A stretch of DNA of 64,000 nt from an uncultured Gammaproteobacteria bacterium (GCA_964418775.1 CAYQNA010000003.1:7307-71306), one strand, 5' to 3'; positions 23,691 to 60,148 are shown, numbered from the stretch's first letter. Notes: generated by a model not told the origin, from the letters alone. A program made the numbers and translations.

Positions 23691-24368
23691 CTAAAAAGAT
23701 ACCAATTTCAAATCCAAGTCTGTTTGCACTTCTTCTGGAATCTGCTCCAAAATACTGTTGATATGCGCCTCAATTAAAAGTTGTCGGCTCGTAGTTTCAT
23801 CCAATCCCCGGCTCGCTAAGTAAAATAATTTTTCCTTGTTCAGACGTGTAGTCGTGACGGCGTGTTTACACTGCACATCATTATTACCAATTTCTAATTC
23901 TGGTACGGCAATTACCCGCGCATTGTCGGAAAGTAAAATGGTGTCTGACCGTTCATCACCAGAACAGCCCGGTTGATTTGGTAGTATTTCAATGCGACTA
24001 ATTTGGTGCGCAAAACTTGAACCGCTCAAAATTCCTTTTGATTCCAATCGTGATGTTGTTCGTGGGGCCACGTGAATTACCTTATGGGAAATCCTTAGAC
24101 TATCATTCCCCTGTCCGGCAAATAAGCCAAGTAATTTTACTTCTGCACCCTCGCCCACCAATTCCACCAACACATCGGTTTTGCGTTCAGTGCCCCCATT
24201 ACCAATTTGCAAATCAATCACGGTCAATTTCGCATTCGCCCCAACCCTAAAGACACGCGTAAAAACACCGTTTTCACTGGGTTGCAACACCTGTACGCTT
24301 ACCTGACCAGATTGTAACGTAAATAATTCCATATAATTATCCCACTGACCCCTCCATTTCCAGCTCAA
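23691..24368 (-). CDS. sufD: SufD-like Fe-S assembly protein (short form)
   Basis: Beta-helix repeat pattern and position between sufB and rest of suf genes; overlaps sufB by 32 nt. Confidence 0.55.
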   Translation of the reverse strand: MSWKWRGQWDNYMELFTLQSGQVSVQVLQPSENGVFTRVFRVGANAKLTVIDLQIGNGGTERKTDVLVELVGEGAEVKLLGLFAGQGNDSLRISHKVIHVAPRTTSRLESKGILSGSSFAHQISRIEILPNQPGCSGDERSDTILLSDNARVIAVPELEIGNNDVQCKHAVTTTRLNKEKLFYLASRGLDETTSRQLLIEAHINSILEQIPEEVQTDLDLKLVSF

Positions 24369-25743
24369 TTAATTTATTGAGTTCAATAGCATATTCGAGT
24401 GGCAAGGCTTTGACAATTGGTTCAATAAAGCCGGCGACAACGAGTTGGCGGGCCTGATCCTCGGACAAACCACGGGAACGCAAATAGAAAATTTCGTCAT
24501 CGCCAATTTTTCCCACTGTGGCCTCGTGCGCCATATCTACATCGGCCTGGTCGATTTTCATGGTTGGATAGGTGTTGGAAACTGATGCATCGTCAATGAG
24601 GAGCGCGTCACAATTTACGGCCACGCTTGAATTGGCGGCCTTTGGGGTCACGCGCACGAGCCCACGATACGTGGAAATTCCACCCCCAACCGAAATTGAT
24701 TTGGCTTTGATGGTTGATTTGGTGTCTGGGGCCACGTGAATTGCTTTGGCGCCCGTGTCCTGATTTTGTCCCGGACCGGCAAACGCCACCCCAAGACTGT
24801 CTGAACGCGCTCCGCGACCGCGCAAAATTGAACATGGGTACAGCATGGTCACGCCACTGCCCATGTTGCCATTAATCCACTCAATCACCCCATTTTCATC
24901 AACGAGCGCGCGTTTGGTATTCAGGTTGTACGTATTTTTGGACCAGTTTTCAATGGAATAATATCTGGCGCGTGCGTTTTTATGGACAAAAATTTCCACA
25001 CAGCCGGCGTGGAGCGAACTCGTAGTGTAGCGCGGCGCACTACAGCCTTCGATATATTGGACCTCGGCACCCTCATCCACAATAATCAGGGTATGTTCAA
25101 ACTGGCCGCCACTTTTGGCATTCATACGGAAATAGGCTTGCAACGGCAAATCAACTTTTACGCCCTTGGGCACATAAATAAAGGTTCCACCGCTCCACAC
25201 CGCCGCGTGCAGCATCACAAACTTGTGGTCATTAATTGGTACGCATTGAGTCATGAAATACTTTTGCACGAGCTCTGGATATTCGTGCACGGCCGTATCC
25301 ATGTTTTCAAAAATCACACCTTGTTCGCGCAGTTGTTGCTGAATATTGTGATACACCACGTCACTATCATACTGTGCACCCACGCCAGCCAGAACGTTTT
25401 TTTCGGCCTCGGGAATACCAAGACGATCGAAAGTCTGTTTAATTTCGGCCGGGACATCGTCCCAACTTTTGGCTTCGTTAGTATCGGGGCGCACAAAATA
25501 AATAATTTCGTTGAGTTTAAGACCAGACAAATCCGGCCCCCAACTTGGCATTGGCGCTTGTTCAAATAATTCAAATGCTTGCAGACGCTTTGCCAACATC
25601 CACTCGGGTTCGTTTTTTTGTTTGGAAATTTCAATCACGACCTCGCGCGTTAAGCCAGGTTTGGATTTGTATTTTGACCGTTCTTCGTTCGCATCGTCGT
25701 AAAGCGCGCGGTCTAGATAAATTGTTGGCTTTTGCAGGGCCAT
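24337..25743 (-). CDS. sufB: Fe-S cluster assembly protein SufB
   Basis: SufB core motifs (RGARSDSLGVAFAGPGQ...); start set at MALQKPTIYLD (25743) matching canonical SufB N-terminus. Confidence 0.85.
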   Translation of the reverse strand: MALQKPTIYLDRALYDDANEERSKYKSKPGLTREVVIEISKQKNEPEWMLAKRLQAFELFEQAPMPSWGPDLSGLKLNEIIYFVRPDTNEAKSWDDVPAEIKQTFDRLGIPEAEKNVLAGVGAQYDSDVVYHNIQQQLREQGVIFENMDTAVHEYPELVQKYFMTQCVPINDHKFVMLHAAVWSGGTFIYVPKGVKVDLPLQAYFRMNAKSGGQFEHTLIIVDEGAEVQYIEGCSAPRYTTSSLHAGCVEIFVHKNARARYYSIENWSKNTYNLNTKRALVDENGVIEWINGNMGSGVTMLYPCSILRGRGARSDSLGVAFAGPGQNQDTGAKAIHVAPDTKSTIKAKSISVGGGISTYRGLVRVTPKAANSSVAVNCDALLIDDASVSNTYPTMKIDQADVDMAHEATVGKIGDDEIFYLRSRGLSEDQARQLVVAGFIEPIVKALPLEYAIELNKLIELEMEGSVG

Positions 25744-25744
25744 A

Positions 25745-25773
25745 TTGACAAAATGATGATTTTTGGCTATACT
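25745..25773 (+). promoter_or_regulatory. Consensus sigma-70 promoter TTGACA-17-TATACT reading into GC-rich island
   Basis: Perfect -35, 17-nt spacer, TATACT -10, located 2 nt after sufB start codon on the opposite strand. Confidence 0.55.
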
Positions 25774-25795
25774 CCGCAGTTCGTTGCCTGAAAGG

Positions 25796-25954
25796 ATGTC
25801 TATGCCGAACACTGCGTACATGGGGGCGCCACCCCTTCCCAACTGGGTGAACACCGTAGTGGGACTCATCACGAGCCCGCTACAGACCGCCCACTACCTC
25901 CTCCAAGATCTGTGGGCATGGATCACCAACCTATTTTCCGGAGGTGAACCCTAG
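25796..25954 (+). CDS. Possible small ORF (52 aa, amphipathic) at start of GC-rich island
   Basis: AAAGGA then ATG; GC-rich codons; followed by structured repeat copy 1. Confidence 0.25.
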   Translation: MSMPNTAYMGAPPLPNWVNTVVGLITSPLQTAHYLLQDLWAWITNLFSGGEP

Positions 25955-26001
25955 AGAAAAGCAGTGTCTGGTGGAGATCAACTAAGGGCGACGAACAACC
26001 G

Positions 26002-26068
26002 AACCACCCGACACTGCGTCTCTGCAGAAATATTTCTGACGAGGCGTGGAGGCGGGTGGTTTTGGTTT
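26002..26068 (+). repeat. Structured 66-nt repeat, copy 1 (long imperfect hairpin CCACCCG...CGGGTGG followed by TTTTGGTTT; terminator-like)
   Basis: Direct repeat of 26935-27001; inner palindrome CAGAAATATTTCTG. Confidence 0.6.
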
Positions 26069-26118
26069 ATTTGACAGCCGTGGATTTCTTGGAGAGAATC
26101 TGTGTCACAGGAGGCGTC

Positions 26119-26343
26119 ATGTTCTTTTACAAGCAACTCGAGCTAGTCGGTCCCAAGCACCACGAACTCATTCTCGGGGCCTTTAAGGAAAGGCCTCCGC
26201 TACCACTGTTCCAAACCGCCATCGTCATCAAACCAGAATATGTCGGCGCTCTGTGCTCGGTCTGCCAAAACTCGGCCGTGGACCGGAACCCCGAAGGCTT
26301 GCGCTGCCCCAAGTGCGGAGCCGAGTGGCCTAACCCGCCTTGA
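26119..26343 (+). CDS. Small Cys4 zinc-ribbon protein (74 aa)
   Basis: AGGAGG 5 nt before ATG; CSVCQ-x13-CPKCG; GC-rich. Confidence 0.45.
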   Translation: MFFYKQLELVGPKHHELILGAFKERPPLPLFQTAIVIKPEYVGALCSVCQNSAVDRNPEGLRCPKCGAEWPNPP

Positions 26344-26397
26344 CAAAAGGCCGGTTTTCCGCTTTACTTGGGCCAGTTTTCCACCACAAAGGGTCTA

Positions 26398-26649
26398 ATG
26401 GCACGAGTTCGAGCATTCGCCGCACTTGCCCTGATTCTTAACCAGCGACGGGTGGAGAAGCCCGCAACCAAGGAACCAAACCGGTATTTCCCACCCAAAG
26501 GTGAGCTGTTCCAGGCCTGCAGTCAGTGCCCAGGGACAACCGACCTTTACCTCGAGACACAAAACGGCCAGGAAATCGTCATCTGCGGGGATTGCGGCGG
26601 CAGGGTGCTGCTACTAACCGCCGATGACGGTGTTAACTGGGTGACCTGA
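26398..26649 (+). CDS. Small Cys4 zinc-ribbon protein (83 aa)
   Basis: CSQCPG-x20-CGDCGG; hydrophobic N-terminus; GC-rich. Confidence 0.4.
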   Translation: MARVRAFAALALILNQRRVEKPATKEPNRYFPPKGELFQACSQCPGTTDLYLETQNGQEIVICGDCGGRVLLLTADDGVNWVT

Positions 26650-26656
26650 GGAGATC

Positions 26657-26887
26657 ATGAACACGCAAGATCTGATCGACTGGCTTCCGTTCCCCCTTAA
26701 CGTAGCCCTGTTCGGGGCCGAGTTGATCGCAGGCGGCGTCCTGCTGACCGGTATGGTCTTCGGCGCCAGCCTGGCGCTGCAGGGAACTGCCTTGACCGAC
26801 GAGGTCAAGGAGGTTCTGAAGGCGATCGGTGCTTTTTTCCAGTGGCTCTTTGAACTGCCCGGCACGGGCGAGGAGGTGAACGCCTGA
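26657..26887 (+). CDS. Small single-TM membrane peptide (76 aa)
   Basis: GAGGAG 5 nt before ATG; TM helix LNVALFGAELIAGGVLLTGMVFGASLAL; acidic C-terminus. Confidence 0.45.
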   Translation: MNTQDLIDWLPFPLNVALFGAELIAGGVLLTGMVFGASLALQGTALTDEVKEVLKAIGAFFQWLFELPGTGEEVNA

Positions 26888-26934
26888 TGGGCCGCAGTGT
26901 TGGGTACAAACCCCACGATCCGGCCCCCACCCAC

Positions 26935-27001
26935 AACCACCCGACACTGCGTCTGTTGAGAAACATTCTCACCAGGCGTGGAGGCGGGTGGTTTTGGTTT
27001 T
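26935..27001 (+). repeat. Structured 66-nt repeat, copy 2 (same outer stem and T-tail as copy 1, inner stem GAGAAACATTCTC with compensatory changes)
   Basis: Direct repeat of 26002-26068 with covarying inner-stem bases; abuts stop of convergent nifS-like gene. Confidence 0.6.
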
Positions 27002-28229
27002 AGGGGTTACCGGCTTGCATGACGCGTACGCCCGCAACAATGCCAGGCAAATATTTGAGGACATAATCCAGGTCCTCTTTTTTTGTCTCGCGACCAATCG
27101 TAAACCGCACACTGGATTTGGAGTCATCGAATTTTAATCCACAGGCCGTGAGCACATGCGACGCATCGTCACTATCAGTTGCACAGGCCGAACCTGTGGC
27201 CGCGATAATTCCATACGCATCCAAATACAATACTAATGTCTCGCCTTCGAGTCCGACAAAACGAACATTCAAATTATTGGCAAGGCGCTGTTCAGTTAAT
27301 TCAGGTCCATTCAAAAATGCATTGGGAATTTTTTTGCTGATTTGTTGCCACAAATAATTACGCAATTTAGTTTGACGTGCATTTTCTTTCTCGGCATTCT
27401 TTTGGACTAATTCGAGCGCACTCGCAAACCCAATAATTCCAGACACATTCTCGGTACCACTGCGAAGTTTATTTTCCTGTCCACCGCCAAGCATAATTGG
27501 TGCAATTGGCGTGCCACGACGAACAAACAAGGCGCCTACGCCTTTGGGCCCATAAATCTTGCTCGAATTAATCGTCATGAGGTCGACATGCAAACGCTCC
27601 ACCTGCAAATCAAGCGCACCCGCGGCCTGGCACGCATCAGTGTGAAAATATGGATATTGCGTTTTGTGCTGCTTACGATATTTCAAAAGTTCGCGACCCA
27701 ATTCGGCAATTGGATTAATCGTCCCAATTTCATTGTTCGCATACATAATCGAAATCAAGCGTGTTTCGGGGCGGATTGCGTTCATTATTTCTTTCACATT
27801 AATTTCTCCGCGTTCATTCATCGGCACATACGTTACTTCCACTCCCCACTTCTCCAATTCACGTAATGGCTCGAGCACCGAGTGGTGTTCGATTGCCGTG
27901 GTAATAACATGGATCTTCTCGGGTGAATTATTTTTCAAAGCTTTAACAACACCGGTAAGCGCTAAATTATTCGCTTCTGTTCCACCACTCGTAAACGTAA
28001 TACAATCTGGATGTGTAAACAAAATTTCCGCCACACGCGCACGCGCTTGTTCAACAGCCTCGTGATTCGCGCGCCCGAGTGAATACAACGCCGATGGATT
28101 CGCAAAACGCTTGGTCCAAAATGGCGCCATAGCTTTGACCACACGCGGATCAGTCGGGGTTGTCGCCGCATGGTCCAAGTAGACCACGCGCTTCTTGATT
28201 GGTTTCGGTGGAAACTTCATAATTGCCAA
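27000..28229 (-). CDS. Cysteine desulfurase, NifS/IscS family
   Basis: VYLDHAATTP, SSKIYGPKGVGALFV PLP-lysine region, class V aminotransferase. Confidence 0.85.
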   Translation of the reverse strand: MAIMKFPPKPIKKRVVYLDHAATTPTDPRVVKAMAPFWTKRFANPSALYSLGRANHEAVEQARARVAEILFTHPDCITFTSGGTEANNLALTGVVKALKNNSPEKIHVITTAIEHHSVLEPLRELEKWGVEVTYVPMNERGEINVKEIMNAIRPETRLISIMYANNEIGTINPIAELGRELLKYRKQHKTQYPYFHTDACQAAGALDLQVERLHVDLMTINSSKIYGPKGVGALFVRRGTPIAPIMLGGGQENKLRSGTENVSGIIGFASALELVQKNAEKENARQTKLRNYLWQQISKKIPNAFLNGPELTEQRLANNLNVRFVGLEGETLVLYLDAYGIIAATGSACATDSDDASHVLTACGLKFDDSKSSVRFTIGRETKKEDLDYVLKYLPGIVAGVRVMQAGNP

Positions 28230-28290
28230 AGCCCGTTAAATATGCTAGGCTTGAACCACAATTTTAAGCCAAATTTAGCCAAAAGTCAAT

Positions 28291-49281: not shown

Positions 49282-49468
49282 AATTGAGCTAAAAAATAAT
49301 CAGATAAGCCAACACTATAGCCTAGTATACCCTAAAAAGCAAGGGGTAACAAAAAACCGTCCAACCTCCTGCCCTGCTCTTGAAATTCAGAAACAAAGCA
49401 CGGTATTGGACGGTTCTCTGACAACCACCTCACGTGTCGCTCGCCAACTGTTGCAGTCGGGCGAACGA

Positions 49469-49948
49469 TTAGTAGCCCTTGGAGGGCGTGATAACGGCGT
49501 CGTTGACGCGGATGATCCCGCCTTCAAGGATCTCCGCAACAATGCCACCGCGCTCGGTGAACGCCTTCCGGAAGTCACCCTTGCCGGAGAGCTTGCCCGG
49601 AAGCGGGCAGGGGTCGCAGTACTTGATGCCGCGGAACTTTGCCTCTCCGACCTGGAATTCCACGTTAACCAGGTCAATGAGCTCGAAGCGCTCCTCACCC
49701 TCGGCCGCATCAACGATGAGGTTGCGACGACTGTCGGCGTATTCGAACTTCGTTCCCTCGAAGAAGCAGCCTCGGATGAGCGTGACCTGCCGTCGGCCCA
49801 CGTTCCCCTTGTTGAATCTCCCCTTCCCCGTGCAGTACCGGTCCCCCTCGAGGCCCTGGCCAGCGACGGCCCGGACCTCATCAACAAGACGCATCGGTGC
49901 ACCCGCTGCGGGCGCGATGCAGACTGCGATCACTTTTCCCTCAGGCAT
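49469..49948 (-). CDS. MOSC-domain protein (YiiM-like); GC-rich (~62%) compositional outlier
   Basis: GKVIAVCIAP...GLEGDRYC...RRQVTLI...RRNLIV...YCDPC pattern typical of MOSC; overlapping track ORFs on other frames are GC artefacts. Confidence 0.6.
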   Translation of the reverse strand: MPEGKVIAVCIAPAAGAPMRLVDEVRAVAGQGLEGDRYCTGKGRFNKGNVGRRQVTLIRGCFFEGTKFEYADSRRNLIVDAAEGEERFELIDLVNVEFQVGEAKFRGIKYCDPCPLPGKLSGKGDFRKAFTERGGIVAEILEGGIIRVNDAVITPSKGY

Positions 49949-50011
49949 TTTCTCACACCCCGTGAGTGGTTTACAGGGATACTAACGAAACACCGACTCA
50001 AAGTCAATCGC

Positions 50012-50039
50012 TTGACCAACCTCATGGGGCCTGTATACT
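50012..50039 (+). promoter_or_regulatory. Promoter TTGACC-16-TATACT with ATG 7 nt downstream (leaderless mRNA for 50046 gene)
   Basis: Seen in sequence. Confidence 0.45.
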
Positions 50040-50045
50040 AATCGC

Positions 50046-58927: not shown

Positions 58928-60031
58928 TCAAATCAGCGCCGTCATGTCCCCGTCGGTGATGGGGATGAGCTCATCGCCCGCGACCTCGCGGGTGGCGAGA
59001 CCAATGTCGATGAGGACCTCCCAGCTGCGCGTGCCCGCGAGCGTGGGCGGATACCTCTGTGACACATTGTCATGGTCCACGGGCGCCTCCTCCATGACGC
59101 CCATGACCGCGTCGGTATGCAGATGCAGGAAGAGCGAACGTGCAACACGGAACGGCGAACGTCCATCCGCCACTGCCCCGATCACGGAGTTCGCCGCTCG
59201 CTGCGTGCACGAGACCTCGTGGTACCCCGCGAGAAAGTACCCACCGGTCACGTACTCGAGTTGCTGTCCGACCTGCACCAGGAAGCACCCGGGCGGGATC
59301 GAGACCTCGAGCTTGGTGCCGTCCCGAAGCCAGATCACCAACCCCGGGAACGTCGAGCGGTCGTGCGCCGTCAGGAACCCGAAGTCGTTGTGGCAGGCGT
59401 TGATGACGTCGCCCACCTTCAACGTGCTCAGGTCAATGGCGTTGAGGGCCAGGATCGTTGCACCGTCGATGAGTCGATGCGTGAGCCGTCCCGCCTTGAG
59501 CCCGAGCCCCCGCTCCACCAGCATCGTGCAGGTGAGAGAGGTGTTGATGAGCACCTGAGCCTGCCGGTCCATGAGGGACGGCCACAGGTCGGTGAACACG
59601 GCCGGCACGACCTGTTCCTCGCGCTTGTTCAGCTTGGGGAACCGCGTCTTGGCCGGCTGCGTACCCGCGCGCCACATGAACCGCATCTTGGGATCCGCGA
59701 ATCCGGCGGGGCACACGGTCGGGTAGTTCTCAGGGTTGAGCGTCCGGAGGAACTCCGCGCACTCGACCGCCTTCTCGACGCCCGGGGGCGTCAGTCCGAC
59801 CTGGTACCCGAGCTCCTCACGCACATCTGACGCCAGGAGCTCCCACGGCTGCGCGAAGTACTGCTGAGCCATGGTCCGGACCTGCACGTCCTCGCCAGAC
59901 GTGAGAACGCGCGGATCCCGCACGATGACCGCACCGAACCGGTGCAGGGCATCGACGAGCGTGCGCGCCGTGTCTAGGTCATCCTCACCCGCCAACGTGC
60001 TGGTGAGGTCGATGATGGGAAGATCCTTCAT
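58928..60031 (-). CDS. 2OG-Fe(II) oxygenase family protein (isopenicillin N synthase-like); GC-rich (~63%) outlier
   Basis: N-terminal DIOX_N-like LPIIDLTS...FGAVIVRDPRV, H-x-D (CHNDFG) iron-binding motif; GAGGTG SD before MKDLPI start; many overlapping GC-artefact ORFs. Confidence 0.65.
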   Translation of the reverse strand: MKDLPIIDLTSTLAGEDDLDTARTLVDALHRFGAVIVRDPRVLTSGEDVQVRTMAQQYFAQPWELLASDVREELGYQVGLTPPGVEKAVECAEFLRTLNPENYPTVCPAGFADPKMRFMWRAGTQPAKTRFPKLNKREEQVVPAVFTDLWPSLMDRQAQVLINTSLTCTMLVERGLGLKAGRLTHRLIDGATILALNAIDLSTLKVGDVINACHNDFGFLTAHDRSTFPGLVIWLRDGTKLEVSIPPGCFLVQVGQQLEYVTGGYFLAGYHEVSCTQRAANSVIGAVADGRSPFRVARSLFLHLHTDAVMGVMEEAPVDHDNVSQRYPPTLAGTRSWEVLIDIGLATREVAGDELIPITDGDMTALI

Positions 60032-60110
60032 TGTCACCTCTTGCGCTTGAGACCACTGCGGTCTGGCTTTTAAATACCATAAACAAGCCAAAAACGCAAC
60101 TAAAAAAATT

Positions 60111-60148
60111 TGAAAACAAAAAATCCCCCACCACATGGGCGAGGGATT
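60111..60148. terminator. Terminator AATCCC-N16-GGGATT + U-run on minus strand downstream of rpsI
   Basis: Seen in sequence. Confidence 0.5.

What the first reader, a model, noticed from the sequence alone, without database searches (positions are those of the whole stretch)
25744..27001. GC-rich ~1.2-kb island in the suf/nif locus: strong promoter, four tiny proteins (two Cys4 zinc ribbons, one TM peptide) and two covarying 66-nt structured repeats
The 1.2 kb between the sufB start and the stop of the convergent nifS-like gene is ~58-60% GC, against ~47% around it. A textbook promoter (TTGACA-17-TATACT, 25745-25773) sits 2 nt past the sufB start codon and reads away from sufB into the island. 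The island encodes a 52-aa amphipathic ORF, then two zinc-ribbon proteins (74 aa, CSVCQ..CPKCG; 83 aa, CSQCPG..CGDCGG), then a 76-aa single-TM peptide. Three of the four have AGGAGG/GAGGAG Shine-Dalgarno sites, and none carries a recognisable enzymatic domain. Two 66-nt direct repeats (26002-26068, 26935-27001) share the outer stem AACCACCCG/CGGGTGGTT and a TTTTGGTTT tail. Their inner stems differ by compensatory changes (CAGAAATATTTCTG versus GAGAAACATTCTC), so they are selected as RNA structures (terminators, attenuators or a small structured RNA) rather than inert duplications. A horizontally acquired small-protein cassette sitting in the presumed sufB promoter region and terminating head-on into nifS is not explained by any standard annotation. 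It is a candidate membrane-acting toxin/immunity or regulatory module.
Basis: seen in the sequence. Interest (0 to 1): 0.8.

Follow-up and report, generated by a model that had tools for sequence, protein, structure and literature searches.

The report
Swappable small-gene cassettes splitting an operon
In an uncultured Magasanikbacteria (CPR) genome, the 1.26 kb between nifS and sufB holds two self-contained, GC-rich small-gene cassettes, each ending in the same conserved RNA hairpin terminator, and related genomes carry different cassettes, or none, at this exact spot.

Summary
In detail: GC-rich island, strong promoter, four small ORFs and two covarying 66-70-nt hairpins. The context was misread. 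nifS and sufB are co-directional, and 15 relatives have them 4-33 nt apart. The island therefore splits an operon and is transcribed antisense; it is not the sufB promoter region.

It is a two-cassette array:
- A: P1, ORF1, hairpin.
- B: P2-ORF2, P3-ORF3-ORF4, hairpin.

Seven related loci carry other cassette sets at the same junction: A alone; B+C; an upstream hairpin then B (partial contig); reshuffled ORF2/C/ORF3; D+ORF4; E; F.

The ORFs are real genes (dN/dS 0.2-0.4, invariant Cys4) and are found almost nowhere else.

The hairpin family has 10 covarying pairs, conserved G·U pairs, an invariant GGAGG-containing base and a U-tail. It occurs only at the 3' ends of GC-rich cassettes, including a MOSC cassette at 49.3-50.0 kb.

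Best reading: moron-like autonomous transcription units at a recombination hot spot. The hairpins act as one-way terminators and probably also as exchange points.

An integron-like mechanism, antisense control of the operon and a toxin role are unproven. Protein function is unknown.

The parts
24337..25743 (-). sufB, the flank and downstream gene of the interrupted operon
   Evidence: ORF. 468 aa, 64-99% identical to SufB of Magasanikbacteria and other CPR or archaeal MAGs.
25745..25773 (+). P1, promoter of cassette A (TTGACA-17-TATACT); its -35 box is 1 nt from the sufB start codon
   Evidence: 11/12 match. The same promoter and 5'UTR are conserved in L002 and L004.
25796..25954 (+). ORF1, 52 aa, no TM segment by hydropathy
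   Evidence: Ortholog in L002: 70% aa identity, dN/dS 0.39, dS 0.51 (sufB between the same genomes has dS 0.45). Hydropathy.
25952..25975 (+). Inferred antiterminator strand of cassette A, starting at the ORF1 stop codon and complementary to the 5' arm of hairpin 1
   Evidence: Duplex -30.5 kcal/mol, z -5.8, 0/300 shuffles. It is the MFE of the nascent RNA before the 3' arm is made. No covariation is possible.
25996..26070 (+). Hairpin terminator 1 (apical variant alpha) with tail TTTTGGTTTA
   Evidence: Fold -41 kcal/mol. CM R2 83.8 bits. 98.6% identical to the hairpin that follows cassette B in L095.
26071..26099 (+). P2, promoter of ORF2 (TTGACA-17-GAGAAT), directly after the hairpin tail
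   Evidence: 10/12. Conserved in L095 and L096.
26119..26343 (+). ORF2, 74 aa, C-terminal Cys4 zinc ribbon; its stop codon TGA lies inside the next TTGACA
   Evidence: dN/dS 0.22. Four invariant Cys in 5 homologs. Only 2 real relatives among 1.84 billion representatives.
26340..26368 (+). P3, promoter of ORF3-ORF4 (TTGACA-17-TTTACT)
   Evidence: 76% identical to P1 (D3). The same element precedes the ORF3 homologs in L095, L096 and L097.
26398..26649 (+). ORF3, 83 aa, Cys4 zinc ribbon
   Evidence: dN/dS 0.25. Invariant Cys. Only one other homolog found in 5.8 billion proteins. AF2 pLDDT 61.6 with beta-hairpins at 50-74.
26657..26887 (+). ORF4, 76 aa, one TM-like segment, conserved QDLIDRLPFPL N-terminus and ELPGTGEEV C-terminus
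   Evidence: dN/dS 0.25 against L095 and 0.21 against L003. Alignment, hydropathy. Only one other homolog in the word-indexed search.
26885..26905 (+). Inferred antiterminator strand of cassette B, starting at the ORF4 stop codon
   Evidence: Duplex -28.6 kcal/mol, z -5.0. Nascent-RNA MFE.
26929..27002 (+). Hairpin terminator 2 (apical variant beta); its tail TTTTGGTTTTA contains the complement of the nifS stop codon (27000-27002)
   Evidence: Fold -40.7 kcal/mol. CM R2 92.2 bits. 95.5% identical to the nifS-proximal hairpin of L095.
27000..28229 (-). nifS-like cysteine desulfurase, the flank and upstream gene of the interrupted operon
   Evidence: ORF. Aminotran_5 on the identical gene in L001.
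28261..28289 (-). Candidate promoter of the nifS-(island)-sufB operon (TTGACT-17-TAAAAT)
   Evidence: Pattern scan. Inferred, not tested.
49347..49421 (-). Third hairpin of the same family in this window; it ends a separate GC-rich cassette
   Evidence: CM R1 32.1 bits and CM R2 54.5 bits. Sequence.
49469..50007 (-). Second-site cassette: promoter TTGACT-17-TAGTAT (50007-49979) plus a 159-aa MOSC-domain ORF (49469-49948); GC about 0.60
   Evidence: The same cassette and hairpin occur in L099.

Best explanation
The segment is a two-unit array of small, self-contained accessory transcription units. I call them moron-like cassettes. They are inserted in antisense orientation into the junction of the nifS-sufB operon of a Candidatus Magasanikbacteria (CPR) genome.

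Each unit has three parts:
- a sigma-70-type promoter that begins with TTGACA;
- one to three small GC-rich genes (a 52-aa protein; two Cys4 zinc-ribbon proteins and a one-TM protein);
- a long hairpin plus U-tail from one conserved family.

The hairpin works as RNA on the cassette strand, as a one-way intrinsic terminator. It stops the strong cassette promoters from running antisense into nifS, and it is not a terminator for the operon strand.

The junction is a hot spot. Related genomes carry different cassette sets there, or none. Modules have been reassorted at two conserved boundaries, the hairpin and the -35 box. The most likely route is homologous or short-homology recombination of DNA taken up from relatives.

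Shown:
- the anatomy;
- the insertion;
- variability between genomes;
- coding constraint on the ORFs;
- RNA-structure constraint on the hairpin;
- association of the hairpin with GC-rich cassettes.

Inferred:
- promoter and terminator activity;
- the recombination route;
- a translation-sensitive antiterminator that starts at the stop codons of ORF1 and ORF4;
- that the products are accessory envelope or regulatory proteins, for example exclusion or defence-type functions, as in phage morons.
For: Insertion into an operon:
- nifS and sufB are 4-33 nt apart in 15 relatives.
- The window, L095, L096, L097, L002, L003, L004, L013 and L014 carry antisense small-ORF units at that junction.

Different arrays in different genomes:
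- Window: A|B.
- L002 (SufB 99%): A only.
- L095: B|C.
- L096: an upstream hairpin, then B (966-bp contig cut at both ends).
- L097: ORF2''-C' | ORF3''.
- L003: D | ORF4' only.
- L004: E.
- L013: F.

Autonomy of the units:
- Promoter-like sites score 10-11/12, and P3 resembles P1.
- TTGACA is enriched: 3 of the 14 plus-strand copies fall in the island.

Foreign composition:
- Island GC is 0.59 against 0.47 for the window.
- GC3 is 0.63-0.79 against 0.46-0.51.
- The same shift is seen in hosts of 37-45% GC.

Real genes:
- dN/dS is 0.21-0.39.
- The Cys4 residues are invariant.

Hairpin:
- 10 pairs change on both sides and 97.6% of cells are paired.
- G·U pairs are conserved, and the + strand is about 10 kcal/mol more stable than the - strand.
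- The U-rich tail is on the + strand only, and no terminator-like site is found on the - strand within the island.
- The base sequence CCACCCGA.ACTGC / GGAGGCGGGTGG is invariant across genomes whose sufB dS exceeds 1.
- Beyond the hairpins the models were built from, R1/R2 gave one other full-length hit in about 920 kb of relatives' loci: an AT-rich generic terminator in L037, which I rejected. In four loci fetched later they found the L097 and L099 copies. Every accepted copy ends a GC-rich cassette.

Exchange at hairpins:
- The L002 hairpin combines the 5' flank of window hairpin 1 with the apex and 3' side of hairpin 2.
- Window hairpin 1, which precedes B, is 98.6% identical to the hairpin that follows B in L095.

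Exchange at -35 boxes: the ORF2 stop codon sits inside the next TTGACA, whichever module follows it.

Recent movement: cassette B genes have dS 0.5-1.1 between the window and L095, against 1.7 for the adjacent nifS.

Match to the moron definition: an insertion between genes adjacent in relatives, with its own promoter and terminator and a deviant GC content (PMC3594210).
Against: - There are no expression data. Promoters and terminators are consensus or thermodynamic predictions only.
- No phage genes flank the island. There is no match in phage, plasmid or IMG/VR collections, so 'moron' is an analogy, not a membership.
- An ordinary terminator needs no sequence conservation. The invariant GGAGG-containing base says that something sequence-specific also reads this hairpin, whether a protein, a recombinase or an RNA partner. 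The model does not explain this.
- No GC-rich donor or vector has been found. The ORF families exist only at this locus in this clade. The high GC could instead come from biased gene conversion at a recombination hot spot.
- The arms of about 20 nt and the -35 boxes are short for RecA-type exchange.
- The dS comparison rests on very short genes.
- Protein function is unassigned.
Confidence: 0.6

Rival explanations
1. An integron-like site-specific cassette system. The conserved hairpin would be the recombination site, an analogue of attC. It would be folded from single-stranded DNA and cut and joined by a recombinase encoded elsewhere in the genome. The array would grow and shrink by insertion and excision of circular cassettes.
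For: - The locus is an array of cassettes, each ending in the same imperfect hairpin, with a different complement in close relatives.
- Hairpin layout: conserved basal stem, 3x3 internal loop, second stem and variable apex. This mirrors the R box, unpaired central spacer, L box and variable terminal structure of attC (PMC5027507).
- The L002 hairpin looks like a window hairpin 1 / hairpin 2 recombinant.
- The invariant base sequence suggests a sequence-specific reader.
Against: - The defining attC features fail. The AAC/GTT triplet is at the outer end of the stem, not next to the internal loop, and it is replaced by GGC or AGC in L004 and L013.
- There are no extrahelical bases.
- The more stable, G·T-containing strand is the coding strand, not the bottom strand (against PMC5027507).
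- The base sequence is conserved, whereas attC sequences are not.
- Every cassette carries its own promoter.
- There is no hairpin at the sufB-proximal end of any array.
- No integrase gene adjoins the array, and a crude motif screen found no tyrosine- or serine-recombinase motif in the 64 kb.
- The alpha hairpin lies upstream of B in the window and downstream of B in L095, which a single fixed crossover point does not predict.
Confidence: 0.15
2. A cis-antisense regulator of the Fe-S cluster operon, like an excludon. The cassette promoters fire head-on against nifS-to-sufB transcription. Conditional read-through of the hairpins then sends antisense RNA into nifS, and sufB expression is decoupled from nifS. 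Read-through would be allowed when the antiterminator forms because the small ORF is not being translated. On this view the small ORFs act mainly as translated sensors.
For: - The orientation is antisense in all nine cassette-bearing loci.
- No promoter-like site for sufB is found on the minus strand of the island, so sufB probably depends on read-through from the nifS promoter.
- A strand beginning at the stop codon pairs with the 5' arm of the terminator in cassettes A, B and E. Energies are -17 to -30 kcal/mol, z is -2.0 to -5.8, and five of the seven copies are at or below -3.0. It is the MFE of the nascent RNA in 5 of 7 of these.
- 80% of cells are paired, against 29-48% in slid registers.
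Against: - The ORFs are under purifying selection along their whole length and have invariant Cys4. Mere translated spacers would not show this.
- Cargo differs completely between genomes, and most relatives live without any insert. A core regulatory role is therefore unlikely.
- Cassettes D, F, L013b and MOSC lack the antiterminator strand.
- The same hairpin family ends cassettes at two unrelated loci.
- There is no covariation support for the alternative helix.
Confidence: 0.15
3. A membrane-acting toxin/immunity or type I toxin-antitoxin module. ORF1 or ORF4 would be a small membrane toxin held in check by a neighbouring product or an antisense RNA.
For: - ORF4 is small and has one hydrophobic segment.
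- Most other cassettes at this junction encode 1-4-TM small proteins.
- The units are patchy and tandemly arranged, as type I loci often are (established knowledge).
Against: - There is no promoter-like site on the opposite strand inside the island.
- ORF1 has no TM segment.
- ORF4 is 76 aa with an acidic conserved C-terminus, not the usual short basic-tailed peptide.
- It is co-transcribed with a zinc-ribbon gene.
- No match in PADLOC, Pfam or PHROGs.
- Cargo also includes a MOSC enzyme and soluble proteins.
Confidence: 0.07
4. Not a real feature. The island would be a chimeric assembly join, or non-coding GC-rich DNA with chance ORFs, and the repeats ordinary REP-like elements.
For: - The sequence comes from a metagenome-assembled genome.
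- The composition jumps abruptly.
- GC-rich DNA gives long spurious ORFs on both strands.
Against: - The same junctions were assembled independently in L001 (100% identical).
- Homologous arrays occur between the same two genes in samples from at least six other runs or MAGs.
- dN/dS is 0.2-0.4 in the + frames.
- Only three hairpin copies occur in 64 kb.
Confidence: 0.02

Closest known systems
Phage morons (Juhala/Hendrix definition; reviewed in PMC3594210)
   Same: Each is an extra unit inserted between two genes that are adjacent in relatives. It has its own sigma-70 promoter, its own factor-independent terminator and a GC content unlike its neighbours. The cargo is small and often membrane-located. 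The unit is spread by horizontal transfer.
   Different: - These units sit in a bacterial chromosome, inside a housekeeping Fe-S operon, with no phage genes nearby and no phage homologs.
- They form arrays.
- Unrelated cargos share one conserved terminator family.
- All are antisense to the host operon.
Integron cassette arrays, and CALINs (clusters of attC sites lacking an integrase)
   Same: Tandem cassettes, each closed by an imperfect hairpin with a conserved base, internal loop and variable apex. The cassette complement differs between close strains. The cargo is mostly small orphan proteins.
   Different: - No IntI, attI or Pc.
- The AAC/GTT core is in the wrong place and is not conserved.
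- No extrahelical bases.
- The stable strand is the coding strand.
- The base sequence is conserved.
- Each cassette has its own promoter.
- The hairpin carries a U-tail and looks like a terminator.
Excludons and convergent antisense transcription units (Listeria-type)
   Same: A strongly promoted unit is transcribed head-on into a neighbouring operon, so expression of the two could be mutually exclusive.
   Different: Here terminators stand between the unit and the operon gene. Any overlap would need read-through. No transcript data exist.
Leader-peptide transcription attenuators (trp and pyrBI type)
   Same: A small translated ORF is followed by mutually exclusive antiterminator and terminator helices. 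The ribosome position at the end of the ORF could decide which forms.
   Different: - The ORFs are conserved proteins of 52-89 aa, not short leader peptides.
- What lies downstream is another self-promoted cassette or the antisense of nifS, not a regulated sense gene.
- The evidence is complementarity only.
Type I toxin-antitoxin loci and small membrane proteins
   Same: Small hydrophobic products, strong promoters, structured 3' ends, patchy and tandem distribution.
   Different: No antisense RNA gene was detected. The proteins are larger, and several cassettes encode soluble zinc-ribbon or enzyme proteins.

Membership tests
Phage moron | Lies between two genes that are adjacent in related genomes | tested here: met
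   nifS and sufB are 4-33 nt apart in 15 relatives. The inserts are 327-1588 nt in the window, L002, L003, L004, L013, L014 and L095.
Phage moron | Own promoter and own factor-independent terminator | tested here: met
   Tested in silico only. There are three TTGACA-17-(-10) sites and two hairpins of -41 kcal/mol with U-tails. No expression data exist.
Phage moron | [quoted passage not shown] | tested here: met
   GC is 0.59 against 0.47. GC3 is 0.63-0.79 against 0.46-0.51.
Phage moron | Resides in a phage or prophage genome | tested here: not met
   The flanks are nifS and sufB. There is no significant PHROG match and no phage, plasmid or IMG/VR match.
Integron gene cassette / attC | Conserved 5'-AAC-3'/GTT triplet in the R box next to the unpaired central spacer (RYYYAAC / GTTRRRY; PMC5027507) | tested here: not met
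   AAC/GTT is at the outer end of the 9-bp basal stem, and it is GGC or AGC in L004 and L013. The flanks do not fit RYYYAAC or GTTRRRY.
Integron gene cassette / attC | Extrahelical bases, and a bottom strand that folds better than the top strand | tested here: not met
   The internal loop is a symmetric 3x3 with no bulged bases. The coding strand folds at -41, the complement at -30 kcal/mol.
Integron gene cassette / attC | Integrase, attI and Pc platform adjacent; cassettes mostly promoterless | tested here: not met
   The array is bounded by sufB and nifS. Every cassette starts with its own TTGACA promoter. No recombinase motif was found in the 64 kb by a crude screen. The rest of the genome was not searched.
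Integron gene cassette / attC | Array of hairpin-bounded cassettes whose complement varies between close relatives | tested here: met
   Arrays: window A|B; L002 A; L095 B|C; L096 upstream hairpin then B (contig cut at both ends); L097 ORF2''-C'|ORF3''; L003 D|ORF4'; L004 E; L013 F.
Rho-independent (intrinsic) terminator | Stable G+C-rich hairpin followed at once by a U-tract on the transcribed strand | tested here: met
   Energies are -41 and -40.7 kcal/mol, with tails UUUUGGUUUA and UUUUGGUUUUA. The same tail is present in all family members. The complement strand has no U-tract. Activity was not measured.
REP/BIME or MITE-type dispersed repeat | Many copies scattered through intergenic regions, independent of particular genes | tested here: not met
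   There are three copies in 64 kb. Beyond the hairpins the models were built from, about 920 kb of relatives' loci gave only one other full-length hit (L037, rejected). All accepted copies end GC-rich cassettes. Whole genomes were not scanned.
Type I toxin-antitoxin | Small hydrophobic toxin plus an overlapping or divergent antisense RNA gene with its own promoter | tested here: not met
   ORF4 has one TM-like segment and ORF1 has none. No promoter-like site is found on the minus strand of the island. This is a weak test, since sRNA promoters can be non-consensus.
Leader-peptide transcription attenuator | Mutually exclusive antiterminator and terminator helices placed so that the ribosome chooses between them | tested here: inconclusive
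   The antiterminator strand starts at the stop codon in A, B and E. Energies are -17 to -30 kcal/mol, with z from -2.0 to -5.8. There is no covariation, because the partner arm is invariant. It is absent from D, F, L013b and MOSC.
Zinc-ribbon proteins (ORF2, ORF3) | Two CxxC knuckles, conserved, on beta-hairpins | tested here: met
   All four Cys are invariant in 5 ORF2 homologs and 4 ORF3 homologs. Pfam zinc-ribbon matches are all below the curated cut-offs. AF2 models are of low confidence, pLDDT 54-62. Foldseek gave no match with E<0.2.

The most novel reading that the evidence does not exclude
CPR bacteria of the Magasanikbacteria group possess an undescribed cassette-exchange system. In it, one conserved, structured hairpin serves two roles. 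It is a (possibly translation-sensitive) transcription terminator, and it is the recombination site recognised by a sequence-specific factor encoded elsewhere. This would be an integron analogue whose cassettes bring their own promoters and are stockpiled antisense inside an essential operon.
Probability: 0.15. Interest if true: 0.85.

Novelty: new variant of a known kind. Interest (0 to 1): 0.6.

Why it matters
CPR/Patescibacteria have tiny genomes, and little is known about how they gain and lose accessory functions. This locus shows a compact and repeatable route. Promoter-ORF-terminator units are swapped at one fixed junction between two highly conserved genes.

The hairpin's base sequence is conserved far more than a terminator needs. 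The cargo is mostly orphan small membrane and zinc-ribbon proteins, the class most often missed by annotation.

The hairpin model gives a handle for finding more such cassettes, and thus a catalogue of CPR accessory small proteins. If a dedicated recombinase reads the hairpin, this would be a new cassette system.

The antisense placement inside the Fe-S assembly operon also gives a testable case of an acquired element rewiring expression of an essential operon.

Tried and rejected
Searches that found nothing:
- Rfam scan of 25.5-27.3 kb at E<=10: only sub-threshold noise.
- Pfam, PHROGs and PADLOC on the four proteins and on cassette C: nothing above the cut-offs.
- The 16-mer of the hairpin in IMG/VR gave 13 hits, all chance, with no partner arm.
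- The two-arm hairpin pattern gave 0 hits in JGI metagenomes and 0 in IMG/VR.
- blastn of the island against phage and plasmid collections, and tblastn of ORF3 against phages: no match.
- Back-translated searches of the ORF2 and ORF3 families in IMG/VR: none.
- Literature searches for integrons or cassettes in Patescibacteria or Magasanikbacteria: nothing relevant.

Protein searches and models:
- Homolog searches found only self plus one relative each for ORF4 and ORF3.
- For ORF2, 2 real relatives among 12 hits; the rest are long repetitive proteins.
- AlphaFold2 of ORF2 and ORF3 gave low confidence. Foldseek against PDB returned only generic zinc-ribbon hits at E>0.2. I drew no functional inference from these.

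Ideas I dropped:
- ORF1 and ORF4 as paralogs. It looked plausible by eye but was not supported (local alignment score 27.5).
- The L037 hit of the broadened hairpin model. It is an AT-rich generic long terminator without the GGAGG core, so I rejected it as a family member.
- The hairpin base as a DNA-uptake sequence or a Chi-like site. I considered this from memory, but the copy number is far too low for an uptake signal and Chi could not be tested.
- An IS200/IS605-type element. Single cassettes have no left-end hairpin.

A crude motif screen for tyrosine, serine or HUH recombinases in the window's 77 ORFs was negative. It is not a proper domain search.


Full report
**1. The observation**

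- GC rises to 0.52-0.61 between 25.7 and 27.05 kb. The stretch 26151-27050 is 0.591, against 0.471 for the window.
- TTGACA-17-TATACT lies at 25745-25773 and begins 1 nt after the sufB start codon.
- The four ORFs are at 25796-25954, 26119-26343, 26398-26649 and 26657-26887.
- The two repeats are at 26002-26068 and 26935-27001. Chance expectation is 0.
- The repeats fold far better than shuffles, and about 10 kcal/mol better on the + strand than on the - strand.
- Only ORF2 and ORF4 have strong Shine-Dalgarno sites.
- An independent Logan assembly has the identical 1258 nt, so the segment is not a chimeric join.

**2. Context**

SufB places the window in Candidatus Magasanikbacteria (CPR).

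- nifS (27000-28229) and sufB (24337-25743) are both on the minus strand.
- In 15 related genomes the nifS stop and the sufB start are 4-33 nt apart.
- The island therefore interrupts an operon and is transcribed antisense to it. It is not the sufB promoter region.
- A promoter-like site for the operon lies upstream of nifS, at 28289-28261 on the minus strand.
- No promoter-like or terminator-like site lies on the minus strand inside the island. sufB probably depends on read-through across the island. This step is inferred.

**3. It is an array of separable cassettes**

Related loci carry different units at exactly this junction, always antisense.

| Locus | Content between sufB and nifS |
|---|---|
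| Window | A (P1, ORF1, hairpin), then B (P2-ORF2, P3-ORF3-ORF4, hairpin) |
| L002 (SufB 99%) | Promoter, ORF1 ortholog, one hairpin |
| L095 | Remnant of P1; ORF2-ORF3-ORF4 with hairpin; then a new cassette with a 149-aa ORF and hairpin |
| L096 | End of an upstream hairpin, a 28-nt spacer, then ORF2-ORF3-ORF4 homologs and the start of the next hairpin (966-bp contig cut at both ends, flanking genes not included) |
| L097 | Distant ORF2, the 148-aa ORF and a hairpin; then P3, a distant ORF3 and a hairpin |
| L003 | A 33-aa ORF with hairpin; then an ORF4 homolog alone with hairpin |
| L004 | A single 89-aa membrane ORF |
| L013 | A single 126-aa membrane ORF |
| L014 | Two small 2-TM ORFs with plain terminators |

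- Four other genomes (L015, L019, L024, L029) have ordinary sense-strand genes inserted at the same junction. The junction is a general insertion hot spot.
- Each module starts with TTGACA. The first TTGACA abuts the sufB start codon.
- Later modules follow the previous hairpin tail by 7-16 nt.
- The ORF2 stop codon TGA lies inside the next TTGACA, whichever module follows.

**4. The ORFs are genes**

- dN/dS is 0.22, 0.25 and 0.25 for ORF2-4 (window against L095), 0.21 for ORF4 against L003, and 0.39 for ORF1 against L002.
- The codon-position GC pattern is that of coding DNA, with GC3 of 0.63-0.79 against 0.46-0.51 in sufB and nifS.
- All four Cys of ORF2 and ORF3 are invariant.
- ORF4 has a conserved N-terminus and an ELPGTGEEV C-terminus around a variable hydrophobic core.
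- The families are tiny and confined to this locus. ORF4 and ORF3 each have one other homolog in 5.8 billion proteins. ORF2 has two real relatives in 1.84 billion representatives.
- Pfam, PHROGs and PADLOC gave no match. Structure models were of low confidence and fold search was uninformative.
- Function is unknown. The zinc-ribbon and one-TM descriptions stand.

**5. The hairpin**

- Seven copies from five genomes give a structure with 24 pairs. 97.6% of cells are paired, and 10 pairs change on both sides. 0/500 shuffles reach this, and slid registers give 44-51%.
- Three G·U pairs are conserved. They would be C·A mismatches on the other strand.
- The U-rich tail (TTTT-G/GG-TTT(T)-A) is on the cassette strand only.
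- It is therefore an RNA element on the cassette transcript, and it has the form of an intrinsic terminator.
- The apex is free to vary with compensation. The base is invariant even between genomes whose sufB is saturated at synonymous sites: CCACCCGA.ACTGC on the 5' side and GGAGGCGGGTGG on the 3' side, enclosing an A.A/AGG internal loop.
- GGAGG is invariant in all 11 aligned copies, including the most diverged one.
- A plain terminator needs no such sequence conservation. This remains unexplained and is the main reason to keep a sequence-specific reader in play.

**6. Distribution of the hairpin**

- Covariance models R1 and R2 searched the window plus about 920 kb of loci from relatives.
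- They found the family only at the 3' ends of GC-rich promoter-ORF units. These are the nifS-sufB arrays, a MOSC-domain cassette at window 49.3-50.0 kb, and a two-ORF membrane-protein island in L013.
- Four loci fetched later added the two L097 hairpins and the MOSC-cassette hairpin in L099.
- One other full-length hit, in L037, is an AT-rich generic terminator without the core motif. I rejected it.
- The MOSC cassette has the same hairpin in a 79%-identical relative at the same locus. A 60%-identical MOSC gene in another CPR genome has normal GC and a short terminator.
- The hairpin therefore travels with a GC-rich gene pool. It is neither a REP element nor a feature private to this island.

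**7. Evidence for exchange**

- The single hairpin of L002 has the 5' flank of window hairpin 1 and the apex and 3' side of hairpin 2.
- Window hairpin 1, upstream of cassette B, is 98.6% identical to the hairpin downstream of B in L095. Window hairpin 2 is 95.5% identical to the nifS-proximal hairpin of L095.
- Cassette B genes differ by dS 0.5-1.1 between the window and L095, while the adjacent nifS differs by 1.7.
- These points fit recombination within the conserved hairpin arms and at the -35 boxes. They do not show whether it is homologous or site-specific.

**8. Tests against known families**

- **attC.** These tests fail. The AAC/GTT triplet is misplaced and not conserved. There are no extrahelical bases. 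The coding strand is the stable one. The base sequence is conserved. Every cassette has a promoter. There is no adjacent integrase, and no hairpin at the sufB-proximal end.
- **Phage moron.** The definition fits point for point: an insertion between neighbours, own promoter and terminator, deviant GC (PMC3594210). The exception is that nothing here is phage.
- **Type I toxin-antitoxin.** The features are not met.

**9. A possible attenuator (inferred)**

- In cassettes A, B and E, a strand that begins at the stop codon is complementary to the 5' arm of the terminator, including its ACA loop.
- Duplex energies are -17 to -30 kcal/mol. z is -2.0 to -5.8 against shuffles, and five of the seven copies are at or below -3.0.
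- In folds of the nascent RNA, before the 3' arm exists, this helix is the minimum-energy structure in 5 of 7 cases.
- A ribosome terminating at the stop codon would cover it, so termination might depend on translation.
- The arm is invariant, so covariation cannot test this.
- Cassettes D, F, L013b and MOSC lack the strand, and the C-type and L097 ORF3 cassettes show only partial pairing that is not significant against shuffles. I report it as a hypothesis.

**10. Verdict**

It is a hot-spot array of moron-like, GC-rich small-gene cassettes, closed by a conserved terminator-type RNA hairpin, inserted antisense into the nifS-sufB operon of a CPR bacterium.
- I rate it a new variant of a known kind, with interest 0.6.

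Noticed in passing
window 49340-50040 (-): A second GC-rich (about 0.60) cassette. It has promoter TTGACT-17-TAGTAT, a 159-aa MOSC-domain ORF (49469-49948) and a hairpin of the same family (49347-49421). The same cassette and hairpin occur in L099. A 60%-identical MOSC gene in L100 has normal GC and a short terminator.
   Followed up: yes
window 58928-60136 (-): A 402-aa ORF with GC 0.63 and a weak 2OG-Fe(II) oxygenase match. It is wedged between rpsI and a flippase-like gene. It looks like another acquired gene but has a different 3' structure and no hairpin of this family.
   Followed up: partly
L013 940-1925: A further GC-rich island at an unrelated locus. It holds a promoter, a 157-aa 4-TM ORF and a plain terminator, then a 75-aa 2-TM ORF closed by a family hairpin (1855-1928).
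   Followed up: partly
L014 4400-5045: At the same nifS-sufB junction there are two antisense cassettes (59-aa and 82-aa 2-TM proteins). Each has a TTGACA promoter, a GGAGG Shine-Dalgarno site and a short ordinary terminator instead of the conserved hairpin.
   Followed up: partly
L015, L019, L024 (about 1 kb) and L029 (about 0.4 kb) upstream of sufB: The same junction holds sense-strand inserts in these genomes. L015 and L019 carry a 240-300-aa Pro/Thr-rich, secreted-looking protein, and L024 carries a gene interrupted by an assembly gap that looks similar. L029 carries a 123-aa protein. The site is a general insertion hot spot.
   Followed up: no
window 26341-26343; L095 349-351; L096 332-334; L097 1110-1112: The ORF2 stop codon TGA is embedded in the -35 hexamer TTGACA of the next promoter in all four genomes. 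This holds even though the next module differs (ORF3 in three genomes, the 148-aa ORF in L097).
   Followed up: partly
window 25952-25975 and 26885-26905: Strands that begin at the ORF1 and ORF4 stop codons can pair with the 5' arm of the following terminator (-28 to -30 kcal/mol). This gives an antiterminator-like alternative fold in the nascent RNA.
   Followed up: partly
window 26988-27137 (+) and 26887-27003 (+): Gene callers and ORF lists give small ORFs that run through the hairpins. One is a 38-aa product called in L001; the other is a 49-aa ORF antisense to nifS. They are probably spurious.
   Followed up: no
locus titles (e.g. L002, L003, L012-L016): Many MAG records titled 'uncultured Gammaproteobacteria bacterium' have SufB 75-99% identical to this Magasanikbacteria-type protein, with matching gene order. 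The taxonomic labels look wrong.
   Followed up: no
window 23691-24368 (-): The SufD-like gene after sufB is only 225 aa and overlaps the sufB stop by 32 nt. This looks like a shortened SufD typical of reduced genomes.
   Followed up: no
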